The notes below the pieces were generated by a model. That model was not told where the DNA came from. It saw nothing but the letters and a program-made list of their open reading frames with translations, and searched no databases. Position numbers and translations under genes: made by a program. Shown here in pieces: positions 29,601 to 40,520 of a DNA stretch of 64,000 nucleotides. How positions within the stretch are numbered: the stretch's first letter is position 1; each line of letters starts with the position of its first letter. The DNA lies in the NCBI GenBank assembly GCA_951406725.2, contig OX597814.1, positions 170,190,001-170,254,000 on the forward strand, in the 5' to 3' direction. Source of the stretch: Octopus vulgaris (lineage: Eukaryota).

Positions 29601-30061
29601 TCTCCCTGAGAACTACGTTAAGGGTATGCATGTCTGTGGAGTGCTCAGCCACTTGCACATTAATTTCATGAGCAGGCTGTTCTGTTGATCAGATCAACTG
29701 GGACCCTTATCATCATGTCATGATGTTTTCTCAAATCAAATACAAATCAAATACAATTTATTACTTAACTTCAAGAACAACAATAACCTTTCTGAACTAT
29801 TGGAGGTCCTCTATGCTGTCGTAGCTTGGGCTGAAAGAAATAGCAGCCAAATTTCCCTCAGATTATACCATTAATGTCTTAGAAAAAAAACAGCAGAGGA
29901 CAAATGAAACAATATAGTCGTTAATATAGAAAAAGACTTAAGATGGTGAATTGGTAGAATTGTTAGCATGCCAGGTAAAATCCTTAGCAGCATTTCATCT
30001 GTCTTTGTGTTCTGGGTTCAAATTCTGCCAAGATCAAGTTTGCCTTTCACCCTTTTGGGGT

Positions 30062-30751
30062 CCTACTGCCATGCAGTGCATCTTGGTTTTGCAGTGCTTC
30101 TCCCCTGTTTGTCAATTTTTGTGATGGCTGAAACAAAGGAACAGCATGCTTCCATGAAATTCTGTTTTCTGCTGGGGAAAATGATGGCTGAAACAGTTGT
30201 CATGCTTCAAACAGCTTACAAGCACGCTGCCATGAGCAGAATACAAGTTTACAAGTGGTTTTCATGCTTTAGGAATGGTTACTTGTTGCTTGAAGACCAA
30301 TATCGTTCAGGGCAACCATTGACCTTCTAAACAAATAAAAGCATCAAGAAAATTCATGAACTGATCTTAGAGAACAGCCACCGAATAATTGACGAACTTG
30401 TTGATATAATTGATGTGTCCCAGAGCTGTGGCTAACGAATTTTGAGCAAGGAATTGTGAACGAAAAGAGCTACAACAAAATTTGTGCCTTGCTTGCTCAC
30501 AGAAGATCAAAAGCAGTCAAGACTGAATACATGTTGTGAGCTGAAAGAACATTTGGAAGTTGATCCAGACCTTTTTGAAAATCATCACTGGTGATGAAAG
30601 CTGGTACTATGGAATTTGCAAATGTGGAAGAGGTGAAGAAAAAAAAATGACGGAGGTGTTAAAAGGTATCACTTTGCAAGAGTTTCAGCACTGCTTTGAA
30701 CAGCGGAAAGCATGTCTTGACTGATGCATTGCTTCAAATGGAGGATACTTT
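30062..30751 (+). mobile_element. Mariner transposase fossil, left part (interrupted by the Gypsy element)
   Basis: From ATG 30124: MAETKEQHASMKFCFLLGK...QVYKWFSCFRNG...EDQYRSGQP (Mos1-type HTH), FVPCLL (WVPxxL-like), ITGDESWYY, then a jump to the C-terminal CIASNGGYF. Catalytic core deleted; stops present. Confidence 0.9.
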
Positions 30752-31170
30752 TGTAGTGATGCTACTGTGTAGGGTTCGGCGCGCATGCGCAGAATGGGAC
30801 TACTTCCGGGTGGCCACCGGAAGTCTTCCCCATGCGCATGTGCGGGAAAACGTCCCTCGAGCCCGCGAACCTCAAATCTCTCTCTTCGGCTAAGACAGCA
30901 TTGCGATCGGTCACGAATTCTCGGCTCTGACCGCCACACGACCAGCAACCAACTTCAACCAACTTCAACGACCAACACGAAGCAGTATATCAGAGGCCGT
31001 CTTTCCCCCACCAGACAACGTACTACACTGAAATCAATAAACCAAACTACTGTCTGTTTACCCTTTTAACCTGAGTTCGTCTGTATTGTTTTCTGGAAGA
31101 ATTTTATATGTGACTAGATCGGATCTCGACACCCTTCCAGTGCTTCGATAATAGATCCTTTCACGTTACA
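30752..31170 (+). repeat. 5' LTR (419 bp)
   Basis: Starts TGTAGTGATG, ends TCACGTTACA; AATAAA at 31036-31041; followed by the PBS. Confidence 0.95.
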
Positions 31171-31172
31171 AT

Positions 31173-31182
31173 TGGTGACCCC
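31173..31182 (+). promoter_or_regulatory. Primer binding site, tRNA-Trp-like
   Basis: TGGTGACCCC 2 nt after the LTR end; complementary to the eukaryotic tRNA-Trp 3' end (...GGGGUCACCA). Confidence 0.8.
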
Positions 31183-31580
31183 AAGCTGAAAAAAAAAAAA
31201 AAGAACAGGATAGAAGAAGACACAGCGAACAGGTTTCTTTTGCCGGAGAGCGCGGAAAATTCATATTTATTTTCATTTTTTTTTCTCTTTTTCAGCACGG
31301 CGAGGTGGGTCAAATAACCTTATTCATCGCACTCAGTACACAAAACAAAAAACAAAACAAACAAAAAAAAAAAACAAACAGAAAAAAAAAGAAAACACAC
31401 ACATTCATTTTTCCTTTTCTGTATTTTGTTTTCCTTGTACACACACTTATTTTTTTTTTGCTACCCACGAGGTGCACACACAAACACAATTTTGATTTGC
31501 TTTGTCGGTTCCACGTGTTCTCTCTCCATTTCTCGACCATACTCTCTGCCCCCTTCTCACAGATTCCTTCCGACAAAGGC

Positions 31581-32060
31581 ATGGCTTCAGGTTTGCCTTC
31601 ATTCACGGGGGATGCGGGGCTGTGGTTTGCACAGGTGGAATCACACTTTGCCGCGCATACCATTCCTCCACAACAGCAGTTACATCTACTGTATTCAAGT
31701 TTGCCCTCCCGGCTCGCAACATCGGTCAGGGATCTCATTGTGAGTCCCCATCCTGACGCCACATATGCGTCAGTAAAGGCGGAAATCCTCCGTCGCAATA
31801 CGCGCTCAGAAGAAAGTCAGTTTAACGAGCTGATGGCCGACGAGCAGTTAGGGGACAGAACTCCATCCCAGTTTCTGCGCCATCTAAGGGAGCTAAGCGG
31901 CAACGCAGCAGACGCGCCGCTCTTACGTAAAATATTTTTTTTCAAGGCTGCCTGCCCACGTGCAGACAATGTTGGCCACGGCACTGGTTTCTGTGGACCA
32001 GATCGCCACGATGGCCGACAAGGTGTTGGACAAGGTGTCACCTTCTTCCATCTCGTTTCC
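31581..32060 (+). pseudogene. gag: Gypsy gag (capsid-like), frameshifted in a T homopolymer
   Basis: MASGLPSFTGDAGLWFAQVESHF...[18 protein letters not shown]...LLRKIF. Removing one T from the T8 run at 31935-31942 gives [15 protein letters not shown], in frame with ORF 31960..33630. Confidence 0.85.
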
Positions 32061-35000
32061 CAAACATCGTGCATTCTTTGTAAAAGATCTGGTGTCGAAG
32101 AAATTCTTCATGGTGGACACCGGCTCCTGTTGCAGCATCTGGCCCCTTCGTCTGGCTCCAGACAAGCCCAAGCGCTCTTCGATTGTCTTGCATGCTATTG
32201 ACTCGTCTCCCATAACCACTTACGGTCAGATTTCGCTGCGCCTCGACCTCAACCTTCGTCGAGACTTTCAATGGGTTTTCGTCATCGCTGACATCCCGCA
32301 TCCTATTCTCGGCGCTGATTTCCTGGATAGGTTTAATCTATTGGTGGATGTCAGGCGTCGGAGGCTTCTTGATAGCACGACGTCGCTCTCTACACCGACT
32401 GGGAGTTCCACCACTGCGGTCCTTAGCCCGACATTCTTTGTTGCCACCTCTGGAGACCCTTTTCACTCTCTTTTGGTTTCATTTCCGGAGCTAGGGGACA
32501 TTGCCTTTAAACCGGAAAAGCCTACCCACTCGACCCTCCATTTCATCACCACCACTGGGCCACCTGTATTCTCACGCCCCCGGCGCCTAGCGCCAGACCG
32601 ACTAAAAACGGCCAGAGCCGAGTTTGAGCACATGCTTCAACTTGGCCTTATACGCCCCTCCACCAGCCCTTGGGCATCTCCCCTTCATTTGGCGCGAAAG
32701 GGCGAGTCTGATTTTCGCCCGGTTGGAGACTATCGACGCCTCAATGCCGTCACAATAGCCGACCGCTACCCGATTAGAAATCTCCATGGTTGTACCATTT
32801 TTGCGAAGGTCGATCTGATACGCGCTTACCACCAAATACCGGTCAACCCAGCCGACGTTCCAAAAACTGCGATCACTACCCCGTTTGGGTGTTTTGAGTT
32901 TTTGTACATGAGTTTCGGTTTGCGGAATGCTACTAGCACCTTCCAGCGTTTCATTGATGAGGTTGTCCGCGGTCTTGATTTTGTGTTTGCCTATGTCGAA
33001 GACATACTCATTGCGAGCGACACACGAGAAAATCATCTCCGGCACCTTTCTCAACTCTTCCAGCGTCTTCACGCGTATAGTATACGCATAAATCCTGACA
33101 AGTGTGTTTTCGGACGCTCTTCCCTAGATTTTCTAGGGCATCATATTGATTCGACTGGAATCAGCCCCCTCTCGTCAAAAGTCGATGCCATTCAACGCAT
33201 CGCACCCCCCTCTTCCTTGCGCCAGCTCAGGCATTATCTAGGGATGATTAATTTCTACCGACGTTTCATTCCCGGTTGTGCAGATAAGCTGCTACCTCTC
33301 ACCAGGCTGCTAAAGGACTCTCCTAGAAAGGACGGTCAAGTCACCCTCTCTGTTGAGGCAGTGACAGCCTTTGAGTCCATTAAGAAGGAGCTGTCTTCTG
33401 TTTCTTTGCTTGCACATCCAGTTCCTGGTGCTTCTCTCTCTTTGACTGTGGACGCATCGGACACTGCGATTGGCGCTGTGTTACAACACACAGTGGATGA
33501 TCATGTTCGACCTCTAGCCTTCTTTTCCCGTCAACTGCAACCAGCTGAACGACGATACAGCACCTTTGATCGTGAGCTCCTAGCGATCTATCTATCGGTT
33601 CGTCATTTCCAGCATCAACTTGAAGGGTGAGATTTTGTGATCTATACGGATCACAAGCCCCTTACGTTTGCCCTGTTGTCAAAAACGGACAAACTCTCAC
33701 CCCGTGCTTTTCGGCACCTGGATTTTATCTCTCAATTCACTAGCAACATTCGACACATACCTGGAAAAGAGAACGTTCCTGCTGACGCTCTCTCTAGCCT
33801 TCCAGTTTGCGCCCTTTCGTCTCCTGCTGCTATCGACTTAGCTGCCATATCGCAGGAGCAGCCACCTTTGGTGTCGTTAGATTTAACTTCTCCCAAGTTC
33901 TCCTGTTGCCAGTTTTCCTACCTTCCGCTTCCGTCAGCCGAAGGCACCATTCTTTGTGACACTTCCACTGGATCTCCCAGGCCACTGGTGCCTGAGAACC
34001 ATCAACGCTCAGTGTTTGAAGCACTGCACTCCTTATCACATCCTGGCATCGCTGCCACCCTCAAACTAATCACTGCTCGGTTTTTCTGGCCGAATATGCG
34101 TCGCACAATTACTTCTTGGACACGCACCTGCTCCAAGTGTCAACGATCCAAGATTCAACGGCACATTCGTGCCCTGCTTGGACAATTTCCCCCACGGAGG
34201 CCCGTTTTCGCCATGTCCACATCGATCTGGTTGGACCATGGCCTGTGAGTCGCGGGTTCTCTTATCTATTAACTTGTGTCGATCGCTTCTCCCGCTGGCC
34301 AGAAGCCATTCCGATAGCAGACATTTCTGCTGAGACTGTTGCGCGAGCTTTCGTTTCAAACTGGATTTCTCACTTCGGAGTCCCGTCCCGATTGACAACT
34401 GATCGTGGACGACAGTTTGAGGCCTCGCTATTTCGCGAATTGTCGCGAATTTTGGGGATGCACCATATCCACACCACAAGCTACCATCCCGCGTCTAATG
34501 GATTGGTTGAGCGGTTCCATAGACAGCTCAAGGCCGCTCTTCGTGCCTCTTCAGACCCACAGTCCTGGATCGAATTTCTGCCCATTGTGCTTCTCGGCTG
34601 TCGGACTGCTGTCAAGGCAGACCTGGGGTTTTCTGCTGCAGAGCTGCTGTATGGTACCACACTGGCATTGCCCGGTACGATGTTGGTGCCAGACACTTCC
34701 CAGCCCCATGATCCGGCAACCTATGTCACCAGACTGCGGGCATATTTTTCGAACCTTCTGCCCATGGTTCCCAGAAAGCAATCTCCACCGTCCCATCTTC
34801 CACCGGATATGAACACCTGGTCGCATGTTTTTGTTCGGGACGATTCTGTGAAGGGCCCACTTGTTTCTCCCTATAAAGGACCTTTTCGTGTGCTTTCTCG
34901 CACACCAAAGGTTTTCACGATTGAGATAAATGGTCGTTCGGAGACCGTTTAAAAAAGGCATATTTTGAGACGTCTTCATCTTTTGATGACAACCTTGACA

Positions 35001-35209
35001 CACCCACCTATGCACCTTTAACAACACTTTCACCTGCACAAACGCCTTCACCTGCACAAACACCTTCACCTGCACAGACGCCTTTGCCTTCACCGGCTCC
35101 TACAACACCACCCTCGCCGTCAACGAGTGCCCCGAGCACACCGTATGTTACAAAATCGGGCAGAACAGTGCATTGGCCCAAGAAACTTTCAAAAACAATC
35201 TACATTTAA
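32061..35209 (+). pseudogene. pol: Gypsy pol (protease, RT, RNase H, integrase), disrupted
   Basis: Protease VDTGS...ILGADFL; [27 protein letters not shown]; RNase [26 protein letters not shown]; H2C2 (HSLSHPG...CSKC); integrase HIDLVGP, TTDRG, NGLVERF, PYKGPF; C-terminal TKSGRTVHWP. Stop at 33628-33630; frameshifts near 34190 and 34950. Confidence 0.93.
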
Positions 35210-35326
35210 CTTTCTTTAAAATGTTTTTCGTTGTATGATATCATGTACCAAGTCTTCTGGGGGATCGGCAAGCCTTCTGTTTTCTGCAGCAACACCACAA
35301 GATTCTTGTTGCCGTACTTCGCACTC

Positions 35327-35335
35327 GGAGGGGAG
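35327..35335 (+). promoter_or_regulatory. Polypurine tract
   Basis: GGAGGGGAG 3 nt upstream of the LTR copy starting at 35339. Confidence 0.75.
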
Positions 35336-35338
35336 CCC

Positions 35339-35515
35339 TGTAGTGATGCTACTGTGTAGGGTTCGGCGCGCATGCGCAGAATGGGACTACCTCAAATCTC
35401 TCTCTTCGGCTAAGACAGCATTGCGATCGGTCATGAATTCTCGGCTCTGACCGCCACACGACCAGCAACCAACTTCAACCAACTTCAACGACCAACACGA
35501 AGCAGTATATCAGAG
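35339..35515 (+). repeat. Internally deleted, 3'-truncated LTR copy in the normal 3' LTR position
   Basis: Matches the LTR 5' part but lacks 67 bp (equivalent to 30804-30870) and stops after TATATCAGAG. Confidence 0.92.
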
Positions 35516-35556
35516 TACATCTTGACTGATGCATTGCTTCAAATGGAGGATACTTT

Positions 35557-35975
35557 TGTAGTGATGCTACTGTGTAGGGTTCGGCGCGCATGCGCAGAAT
35601 GGGACTACTTCCGGGTGGCCACCGGAAGTCTTCCCCATGCGCATGTGCGGGAAAACGTCCCTCGAGCCCGTGAACCTCAAATCTCTCTCTTCGGCTAAGA
35701 CAGCATTGCGATCGGTCACGAATTCTCGGCTCTGACCGCCACACGACCAGCAACCAACTTCAACCAACTTCAACGACCAACACGAAGCAGTATATCAGAG
35801 GCTGTCTTTCCCCCACCAGACAATGTACTACACTGAAATCAATAAACCAAACTACTGTCTGTTCACCCTTTTAACCTGAGTTCGTCTGTATTGTTTTCTG
35901 GAAGAATTTTATATGTGACTAGATCGGATCTCGACACCCTTCCAGTGCTTCGATAATAGATCCTTTCACGTTACA
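35557..35975 (+). repeat. Third, complete LTR (419 bp)
   Basis: Same as 30752-31170 except 4 substitutions (3 are CpG>TpG); followed by TSD CTTT. Confidence 0.95.
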
Positions 35976-36051
35976 CTTTGAAGGCAATAAAAGTGTAAAC
36001 ATGTAAAACTAAGTGAAAAAAATACCGGTTTCTTTTGAGTACTCCCTCATA
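35976..36051 (+). mobile_element. Mariner right part: last codons and 3' TIR
   Basis: Joining the flanks across the TSD restores GGYFEGNKSVNM*. Ends ...TTTTGAGTACTCCCTCATA (TACGAGGG-type TIR with CpG decay). Confidence 0.85.
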
Positions 36052-37476
36052 CATACATATATACATATATGACTGGTTTCTTTCAGTTTCCATCTACAAA
36101 TCCACTCACAAGTGTTTGGTTGGCTTGAGGCTATAATAGAAAAACTTGCCAAGGTACCACGCAGTAGTACTGCGCCTGGAACCATGTGGCTGGGAAGCAG
36201 ACTTCTTACCACACAGCCATGCTTGCACCTATGCCAAGCCTGCAATTGCTTTGTTTTAGTTTTAGATTTAATATATCAAAACTCACAATATCCAATGTGC
36301 CCTTTCATTTTTTATATGATGAAAGTGTAACCTTGGCTGCCTTGTTTAGCAGATCGAGCTTCCTTATTTACTTACGTATACAATAGTAAAATAGCCAAGT
36401 ATATTTCTGAAACAGCTGTATGATTAACATACCATACTTTTGGCTCCGGAAATTATGGTTTCGAATCCAGTGCACACATGTCCTTGTGCTTTTATGAAGG
36501 ATATTAAATTCTATATTATTTTATTTCATGAAACAGAGTGGAATAACTAACAGACACTTCTAGAAAGAGTTATTTATGATAGTCTTTTATCTTTTACAGA
36601 GAAAGATTCACCACTTATTTACTTAACACAACAGAAACCAAGGCTGAGCCTTGTGAATATTTTGTGATATTTTCTTTTTCTTTTTTTTTTTTTGAGAATA
36701 GCCTTATTTTTTCCCCCCATTACAGTTCTAAACCTTTCTTCCTTGTATCCATGAAAAGCTCTATAGATTTTTCTCATCTCTTAAATTTAATTAAACAAAG
36801 ATGCAATAAAGATTCTAACATTAATAATTTTTTCATAAAGAAATCAATTAAGACTGATTTGTGTCAGTCTGCACAAGAACAATGGCAGATTGCCCTACTA
36901 TGCATCAATGTCTAGACTGATGTTATGGATAAAATGATGGGGATGTTTATTCAATGAAGTGAAGAGAAAAAAAGTCAACTCAATATACATGTCTCTGTTT
37001 GAAATTAACACTGGGAGATTTTCTACTTAATTAATTTCACCAAAGAAATGATACTACCAGTGAATATGATTAGCAAATTTCCCTGTGTTATCATATAATT
37101 AATATGACTTACTAATGTTTTCTAAGATGTCTACAGATAAAAATCATTTATTTCTTCATCTGTATACCTTTCAGATATATTAGGTATATTCACCAGTTTA
37201 ATACAAGCTTCCATAATGAACAGCAAAGTGGTAGGATTACTTGCAGCCAAATTTCACTCAAATGATATTATAGTAAGCATAATTAAATCTCAGGGACATG
37301 CGACATAATGTAGTCCCAGATGCACCATGTCTGGAAAGATAAAGATTGAGTGATTATGGCTGGAATGTCTTTGTTCATCAATCTGTTTGATCAGGGTTGA
37401 TCTAGGATCTGAGTTCTGTTATAATTCCACTCATATTTAGAATGCCATGTTGGAATATTAAGTCAACCTTATTTAC

Positions 37477-39982: not shown

Positions 39983-40144
39983 CATGATATATATTCACAC
40001 ACATACATGCAACCAGTTTCTGCAGAGTTTTCATCTCTCTAATTCTACTCACAACAACTGCAGAAGACATTTACTGAAAGAGCTTTGCAGTAGAATTTTA
40101 TCAGAGTGCAGAGCATACTCATAATTACACAGCCATATCCCTAT

Positions 40145-40520
40145 ACTTATGTATATATATATATATATATACACACACACGCACACACACACACATGCAT
40201 GTATTTATGCATATATATTTATATATACATATATATATATACACACACACATGCATCTATGCATATATATCTATATATACAGATATATATATATGCACAT
40301 ATATACACATATATATATGTATATACATATGTATGTGTGTGTATATATATATATATATATACACACACGCATGTATTTATGCATATATATTTATATATAC
40401 ATATATATATATACACACACACATGCATCTATGCATATATATCTATATATACAGATATATATATATATGCACATATATACACATATATATATGTATATAC
40501 ATATGTATGTGTGTGTATAT
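40145..40520. repeat. TA/CA-rich tract made of a tandem duplication of about 180 bp
   Basis: GCATGTATTTATGC...GCATCTATGC...ACAGAT...GTATGTGTGTGT occurs twice. Confidence 0.85.

What the first reader, a model, noticed from the sequence alone, without database searches (positions are those of the whole stretch)
35339..35979. Three-LTR Gypsy element with 37 bp of its own left host flank repeated inside it
Seen: after the PPT come a broken LTR (35339-35515), a 4-nt filler TACA, then TCTTGACTGATGCATTGCTTCAAATGGAGGATACTTT (35520-35556), identical to the mariner sequence just left of the 5' LTR (30715-30751), then a complete LTR and the TSD. Normal retrotransposition cannot put target DNA inside the element. 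Inference: the block flank+LTR+TSD+flank is what a solo-LTR allele of this locus would look like. So this is either a post-insertion template-switch/break-repair event copying from the 5' junction or a solo-LTR homologue, or an assembly joining a full-length and a solo-LTR haplotype. The 4 differences between LTR1 and LTR3 argue against a simple read duplication.
Basis: partly seen in the sequence, partly recalled or inferred. Interest (0 to 1): 0.72.

Follow-up and report, generated by a model that had tools for sequence, protein, structure and literature searches.

The report
Break-repair patch inside a retrotransposon end
A dead jumping gene carries, inside its right-hand end repeat, a 285-letter block that repeats its own left junction with the host DNA; this is likely an ordinary one-off scar of DNA-break repair, though an assembly error is not excluded.

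Summary
A broken Ty3/Gypsy element (30752-35979, 4-bp target duplication CTTT, inside an old mariner copy) ends in: LTR fragment (35339-35515, LTR positions 1-244 less 67 bp), TACA, a perfect 37-bp copy of the left flank, then a full LTR. The simplest account is a normal two-LTR element with one 285-bp insertion (4 + 37 + 244) at position 244/245 of its 3' LTR, copied from its own 5' junction 4.8 kb away. LTR and flank share 6 bp in register at the joint (4 retained), which fits microhomology-guided repair or template switching. No solo-LTR allele is needed. The 4 LTR differences are what ordinary LTR pairs of this family show (0-7 in 6 elements). None of 26 other family sites has its own flank inside, so it is a one-off lesion. 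Reads did not settle reality: one sample shows the flank-LTR junction, no contig run (0 of 5) shows the two odd joints, but such contigs also drop this locus's private LTR variants, and the one raw-read run laid nothing. Assembly artefact about 20%. Low interest.

The parts
29953..30751 (+). Old, broken mariner (Mos1-like) transposase copy, left part; host target of the insertion
   Evidence: Pfam HTH_48 E=1.7e-7; stops and frame changes; other copies 80-84%
30715..30751 (+). 37-bp left flank that was copied; ends in the target duplication CTTT (30748-30751)
   Evidence: exact 119-nt contig 30655-30773 in run X2
30752..31170 (+). LTR1, 5' LTR, 419 bp; likely template of the copied block
31171..35338 (+). 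Internal region: primer-binding-site-like motif, gag (DUF7041), RT, RNase H, integrase, purine tract; broken (frame change near 31940, stop at 33628-33630, frame change near 34190, about 300 bp missing near 32030 against other copies)
35339..35515 (+). LTR2: left part of the original 3' LTR (positions 1-244) with a 67-bp deletion and one own substitution (35434)
   Evidence: deletion joint found once in G000
35516..35519 (+). 4-nt junction block TACA, in register with 4 bases of both templates but equal to neither
35520..35556 (+). Perfect copy of the 37-bp left flank; first 4 bases shared in register with LTR positions 249-252
35557..35975 (+). LTR3, 419 bp; inferred chimera: positions 1-244 copied from LTR1, 245-419 the rest of the original 3' LTR
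   Evidence: chimerism is inference
35976..35979 (+). Right copy of the 4-bp target duplication CTTT, followed by the rest of the mariner copy

Best explanation
The element's 3' end holds a 285-bp block (4 junction bases, 37 bp of left flank, LTR positions 1-244) that repeats its 5' junction and was likely pasted in during repair of a break or stalled fork near position 245 of the 3' LTR. Inferred steps: (1) a normal two-LTR element integrated with a CTTT duplication; (2) later the 3' LTR broke near 245-252; (3) the right-hand end invaded the homologous 5' LTR (same or sister chromatid), copied it leftwards and overran its start by about 37 bp into the host flank; (4) the released strand was joined to the left-hand end where flank and LTR share a short in-register match, 4 bases being replaced; (5) the 67-bp deletion in LTR2 arose in the same exposed single strand or separately. 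The fork-switch version (left end jumps to the flank by microhomology, copies through LTR1, returns by LTR homology) gives the same product and cannot be told apart. It has no function of its own: a scar in a dead copy.
For: Shown: bookkeeping 4+37+244 = 285 = LTR2-to-LTR3 period; removing the block leaves a two-LTR element with correct outer ends and CTTT on both sides. LTR3 247-252 and flank 30713-30718 are identical over 6 bp in the register of the joint, 4 bp retained; chance over 125,780 LTR/flank position pairs 0.0038 for 4 bp, 0.0002 for 6 bp (post hoc, other registers not counted). Three of 4 LTR1/LTR3 differences lie right of the joint, where LTR3 would be the old 3' LTR (P=0.16, not significant). 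LTR2 and LTR3 carry their own CpG-to-TpG changes (115, 163, 268), the usual signature of ageing DNA and not of copying error in an assembly (established knowledge). The deletion joint has 2-3 bp microhomology, ends near the 3' foot of a predicted stem-loop (-32.5 kcal/mol, positions 22-120, no shuffle control) and is found once in G000, so it is not a family variant. LTR-LTR recombination is common here: 8 of 26 other sites are solo LTRs with matching 4-bp repeats, 4 of 26 carry extra LTRs or LTR pieces. Run X2 holds one unbranched exact contig across the 37 bp into the LTR at depth 27.6, beside single-copy contigs at 25.4 and 29.3, where a doubled flank would give about 34-39: a weak hint that a plain allele exists and the block came after insertion.
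Against: No read-level proof: neither odd joint was seen in 5 contig runs from 4 samples (X1, X2, X16; X2, X3, X1, X4; X1 and X16 read only 76-80%), and raw run X21 laid 0 reads (no test). The two bases left of TCTT in the 6-bp match are not retained, so simple annealing at those 6 bp does not explain TACA. Timing is unconstrained: the likelihood is flat from insertion to about 0.9 of the element's age. The X2 contig has only 22 bases on the LTR side, under the tool's 31-base bridging bar. The SNPs fit the rival routes and two haplotypes as well.
Confidence: 0.5

Rival explanations
1. Assembly artefact: a full-length haplotype and a solo-LTR haplotype were joined, the left piece ending at 3' LTR position 244 and the right piece starting 37 bp before the solo LTR.
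For: The right block is letter for letter what a solo allele would be; solo LTRs are 8 of 26 other sites; 0 of 5 contig runs show either odd joint, although low-depth 59-60-nt LTR variant contigs do survive in those runs; X2's contig crosses the 37 bp unbranched.
Against: No N gap. The joint has 4 bases found in neither template at those positions, plus a separate 67-bp deletion, which overlap-based joining does not readily make (inference). Holes are uninformative: X2 also lacks contigs for LTR1's own variants at 30998 and 31059 (bins 30958-31049 zero) and the tool states that a filter removes records. No second copy of the flanks lies in G000. The laid samples may not be the source animal (best share of words 0.54).
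Confidence: 0.2
2. Long-tract route: either a 4,805-bp microhomology-mediated tandem duplication (30715-35519) whose second copy later collapsed to a solo LTR, or a break 37 bp left of a solo-LTR allele that copied almost the whole element from a full-length homologue and was end-joined.
For: Same product and same joint microhomology; a 2.16-kb tandem duplication with truncated LTRs exists at another family site (L058); solo formation is frequent.
Against: Needs two events or a 4.8-kb tract plus a second allele, and gives no reason for the breakpoint to lie only 37 bp from the LTR.
Confidence: 0.18
3. Integration-coupled switch: both cDNA ends were joined by integrase, but a free 3' end inside the 3' LTR (unfinished plus strand) primed on the gapped left junction held next to it, copied 37 bp of flank and the 5' LTR, and returned by homology.
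For: Explains the nearness of the copied flank; no variant is shared by LTR1 and LTR3 against LTR2 (0 in 177 sites), as expected if all three are equally old; 3'-end priming on nearby host DNA is the published model for aberrant retroviral integration (PMC5041404, Discussion read); other family sites show element-only LTR switches with intact 4-bp repeats (L007, L020).
Against: The star-like pattern has little power. The pure one-ended version fails because both outer ends are canonical with a 4-bp duplication. X2's unbranched contig hints at an allele without the block, though that allele could be a later solo LTR.
Confidence: 0.12

Closest known systems
Templated insertion at a DNA break: FoSTeS/MMBIR and one-sided invasion (PMC4888836, passages read; the one-sided invasion paper seen only as a reference title there); class 2 templated sequence insertions (PMC5110952, abstract only)
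   Same: A block copied from elsewhere, no duplication or poly(A) of its own, short microhomology and extra bases at one joint, return to the original template.
   Different: The donor is the element's own 5' junction 4.8 kb away and the return is through LTR homology, so the product looks like a third LTR. Class 2 insertions are described as coming from distant regions.
Synthesis-dependent microhomology-mediated end joining (PMC2943611, passages read)
   Same: Short junction insertion; the 7-mer around TACA is the reverse complement of LTR3 266-272, about 25 bp from the joint.
   Different: Weak and post hoc: 9 of 256 random fillers would pass the same test. TACA also equals the LTR's last 4 bases.
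Complex or tandem LTR retrotransposons with three LTRs (PMC1950507, part 1 of 2 read; bioRxiv 10.1101/452573, part 1 of 2 read; PMC11899658, passages read)
   Same: Three LTR copies within one target duplication; outer LTRs nearly identical; break repair of one LTR on the other LTR of the sister chromatid is cited there as one proposed origin.
   Different: Those share a whole internal LTR between two internal domains and, in the parts read, hold no target DNA inside. Here there is one internal domain, a truncated middle LTR and 37 bp of host flank.
Aberrant one-ended retroviral integration (PMC5041404, passages and Discussion read)
   Same: Truncated element end joined through short homology to a duplicated stretch of adjacent host DNA.
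   Different: There one end is host-made; here both outer ends are integrase-type with a 4-bp duplication, and the odd joint is internal.

Membership tests
Ty3/Gypsy LTR retrotransposon | Direct LTRs with TG...CA ends and a short target duplication | tested here: met
   419-bp LTRs, CTTT on both sides; 4-bp repeats at other family sites
Ty3/Gypsy LTR retrotransposon | Domain order RT, RNase H, integrase | tested here: met
   RVT_1, RT_RNaseH, Integrase_H2C2, rve in that order
Ty3/Gypsy LTR retrotransposon | Primer-binding site after the 5' LTR, purine tract before the 3' LTR | tested here: met
   TGG-motif at 31173 and purine run ending 35335, by inspection; priming tRNA not identified
Ty3/Gypsy LTR retrotransposon | Clade placement by RT tree; env present or absent | not tested
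   no tree built; only 5 frames scanned against Pfam
Complex/tandem three-LTR element | Complete internal LTR shared by two internal domains | tested here: not met
   middle LTR truncated, one internal domain
Complex/tandem three-LTR element | One target duplication around the whole, outer LTRs alike | tested here: met
   CTTT, 415 of 419 identical
Complex/tandem three-LTR element | Made of element sequence only | tested here: not met
   37 bp of this locus's flank inside
Templated insertion at a break (MMBIR / one-sided invasion type) | Inserted block is a copy of an identifiable donor, without its own target duplication or poly(A) | tested here: met
   35520-35800 repeats 30715-30995 with 1 difference in 281 bp
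Templated insertion at a break (MMBIR / one-sided invasion type) | Microhomology or short filler at the non-homologous joint | tested here: met
   4 bp retained in register, 6 bp between templates, 4 replaced bases
Templated insertion at a break (MMBIR / one-sided invasion type) | An allele without the block exists | tested here: inconclusive
   X2 unbranched contig at single-copy depth, allele type not resolvable
Templated insertion at a break (MMBIR / one-sided invasion type) | The joint is present in real molecules | tested here: inconclusive
   0 of 5 contig runs, raw run laid nothing
Aberrant one-ended integration | One outer end is not integrase-made (no normal short duplication) | tested here: not met
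   both outer ends canonical with CTTT
Aberrant one-ended integration | Truncated element end joined by short homology to duplicated adjacent host DNA | tested here: met

The most novel reading that the evidence does not exclude
A germline fossil of an integration accident in which both ends were correctly integrase-joined, yet an unfinished 3' end inside the 3' LTR primed on the gapped left junction held beside it and copied host flank plus 5' LTR: a two-ended counterpart of aberrant retroviral integration, recognisable genome-wide as 'short own flank between a truncated and a full 3' LTR'.
Probability: 0.12. Interest if true: 0.45.

Novelty: new member of a known kind. Interest (0 to 1): 0.17.

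Why it matters
Little on its own: one scar in a dead copy, with no sign of recurrence (0 of 26 other sites) or function. If real, it is a tidy natural example of the 5' LTR junction serving as repair template for the 3' LTR with overrun into host DNA, and a caution for LTR dating and solo-LTR calling, because LTR3 with its flanks mimics a solo LTR with a perfect target duplication. It would matter more only if a genome-wide screen found the pattern recurring with all three LTR copies equally old, which would point to the integration step.

Tried and rejected
Reads: (35200-36700; X1, X2, X16 contigs, X21 raw) gave zero depth at 35455-35505 in all three contig runs, and X21 laid 0 reads; 15 joints were shown, 32 not. 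One search (29900-31260; X2, X3, X1, X4) listed 6 joints, none the 67-bp skip or the jump back from 30995 to 30715. These holes prove nothing. Joints skipping 423 bp at 35551-35975 in X1, X2, X16 show mariner sequence without the LTR but cannot be assigned to this locus. A 46-nt stretch after LTR1 is unique in G000 and lies in an exact X2 contig at depth 35.8, but sibling copies absent from G000 could supply it. Rejected: 67-bp deletion as a family variant (1 match in G000 with up to 1 mismatch); the 37-mer from another mariner copy; a 37-bp target duplication followed by a second insertion at the same base (needs two independent hits at one nucleotide; TACA does equal the LTR end, 1 in 256, but the element would keep only 4 terminal bases); pure one-ended integration (right end canonical); TACA as CpG decay of the flank bases (three changes in four bases at under 1% divergence; one of 11 other mariner copies does read TACA there). 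Two apparent flank-inside hits among 20 regions were dropped: L050 is a TA repeat, L060 is inverted copies of another interspersed repeat at 74-92%. Dating the event from SNPs gave a flat likelihood. Paper searches for this exact pattern: three-LTR papers only; 0 hits; subscription journals are not covered and no supplements were read, so absence from print is not shown. Scan look-ups by words and by sequence found nothing; the genome-wide look-up showed 8 of 473 notes, none on this pattern.

Full report
Observation. LTR1 (30752-31170) and LTR3 (35557-35975) are 419 bp, start TG, end CA and differ at LTR positions 115, 247, 268 and 308. After the purine tract comes LTR2 (35339-35515), LTR positions 1-244 with 67 bp missing between about 53 and 119 and one substitution at 163; then TACA; then 37 bp identical to 30715-30751; then LTR3 and CTTT. 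The window has no N.

What the parts are. The internal region has DUF7041, RT, RNase H and integrase domains in Ty3/Gypsy order and is broken in several places. The target is an old mariner copy (HTH_48) whose best relatives in G000 are 80-84% identical. In 11 of 11 aligned relatives the 37-bp stretch differs from ours and runs straight on into the sequence found right of LTR3. So CTTT is a true 4-bp target duplication and the internal 37-mer is a copy of this locus's own flank. The genome is 2.8 Gb; earlier scan notes call it an octopus (not checked here).

Bookkeeping. One integration makes one flank-LTR junction; two are present, so one is a later copy (inference from the integration mechanism). 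LTR2 and LTR3 repeat with a period of 285 bp = 4 + 37 + 244. Without that block the element is an ordinary two-LTR copy with a 67-bp deletion in its 3' LTR. The finding is therefore one 285-bp insertion at 3' LTR position 244/245 whose donor is the 5' junction.

The joint. Written in register, LTR and flank share two bases, differ at two, then share six (LTR3 247-252, flank 30713-30718); the joint keeps the first two and the last four and has TACA between. Among 125,780 LTR/flank position pairs a 4-bp match occurs at 0.0038 and a 6-bp match at 0.0002 (post hoc). TACA itself has three readings, none decisive: replaced bases; a snap-back copy of LTR3 266-272 (9 of 256 random fillers pass that test; compare PMC2943611, passages); or the LTR's last four bases. 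The 67-bp deletion has 2-3 bp microhomology, ends near the foot of a predicted stem-loop (no shuffle control) and occurs once in G000.

The LTR variants. Against alignment rows of other copies (some rows repeat one LTR), LTR3's letters at 115 (0 of 32 rows) and 268 (0 of 31) and LTR1's at 247 (0 of 31) are unique, LTR1's at 308 is in 2 of 30 and LTR2's at 163 in 3 of 32. Changes 115, 163 and 268 are CpG to TpG. No variant unites LTR1 and LTR3 against LTR2. Three of the four LTR1/LTR3 differences lie right of the joint, as a chimeric LTR3 predicts, but P = 0.16, and the timing likelihood is flat from insertion to about 0.9 of the age. Six ordinary two-LTR elements of the family differ by 0, 1, 4, 4, 5 and 7 substitutions, so 4 is unremarkable.

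Family census. Of 26 other sites (from the 40 best of 1,979 candidates; 19 sites fetched at 6-10 kb and tested for flank 16-mers; 7 tested within 1.5 kb of each LTR), none has its own flank copied inside; two raw hits were dropped as a TA repeat and an interspersed repeat. Eight are solo LTRs with matching 4-bp repeats; four carry extra LTRs or LTR pieces made of element sequence only (L007, L020, L044, L058). Several sites have only one end traceable. LTR rearrangement is common in this family; flank capture is a one-off.

Is it real? Unresolved. No run holds more than 0.54 of the stretch's words. Neither odd joint appears in 5 contig runs from 4 samples, and the raw run laid nothing. Against reality: short low-depth LTR variant contigs do survive in those runs. 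Against reading the holes: X2 also lacks contigs for LTR1's own variants, and the tool warns of a filter. X2 has an exact 119-nt contig from the flank 22 bases into the LTR (under the tool's 31-base bar) at depth 27.6, beside 25.4 and 29.3 for single-copy flank, where a doubled flank would give about 34-39. So the insertion site is occupied in that sample, probably without the block; this fits a later, polymorphic repair event and an artefact alike. The joint's anatomy leans biological; I put artefact at 0.2.

Mechanism. Best (0.5): a break or stalled fork near position 245 of the 3' LTR, repaired on the 5' LTR with overrun of about 37 bp into the flank and closed at the short in-register match. 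It is one event with a tract under 300 bp, explains why the copied flank touches the LTR, and leaves the target duplication intact. All steps are inferred. Rivals: artefact (0.2); long-tract duplication or copying into a solo allele (0.18); integration-coupled priming (0.12).

Comparison. It works like FoSTeS/MMBIR or one-sided invasion with end joining (PMC4888836, passages; PMC5110952, abstract). It is not a member of the three-LTR complex elements (PMC1950507 and bioRxiv 10.1101/452573, first of two parts each; PMC11899658, passages): no shared whole LTR, one internal domain, host DNA inside. It is not a one-ended aberrant integration (PMC5041404, passages and Discussion), because both outer ends are canonical, although the priming-on-nearby-DNA logic is the same. 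Searches for the exact pattern found none, within an open-access library only and without supplements.

Verdict. Observation confirmed, interpretation partly supported. A new instance of a known kind of repair scar in a dead retrotransposon, possibly an assembly error. Interest 0.17.

Noticed in passing
L058:2342-8015 (G000:C28, 20.84 Mb): Family site with four LTR copies: full LTR, two LTRs cut at position 347 each followed by internal sequence from the RNase H region (a 2.16-kb tandem unit), full LTR; lies in a 34-bp-type satellite, outer LTRs differ by 18 and the 4-bp flanks do not match.
   Followed up: partly
L020:1384-2053: Mini-element with intact GAGG repeats: LTR 1-180, an inverted piece of the LTR start (43 to 1), 55 bp of purine-tract region, full LTR; looks like a fold-back template switch.
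   Followed up: partly
L007:1016-1899: Mini-element: LTR 1-281, last 174 bp of the internal region, then an LTR in which positions 10-48 are repeated; the break at about 48 is close to the left end (52) of the deletion in LTR2, next to the LTR's palindrome.
   Followed up: partly
L044:1627-2060 and L045: The closest LTR relative (97.9%) is followed by a primer-binding-site motif and unrelated internal sequence, and its internal region is preceded by a different LTR: likely a tandem or chimera of two families sharing an LTR.
   Followed up: partly
window 30773-30871 (LTR positions 22-120): The LTR holds nested palindromes predicted to fold into a long stem-loop (-32.5 kcal/mol as DNA, no shuffle control); several family rearrangements break near it.
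   Followed up: no
window about 32030: About 240-300 bp of gag-protease region present in most other copies is missing here.
   Followed up: no
window 40142-40485: 172-bp direct duplication inside a TA/CA-rich simple repeat.
   Followed up: no
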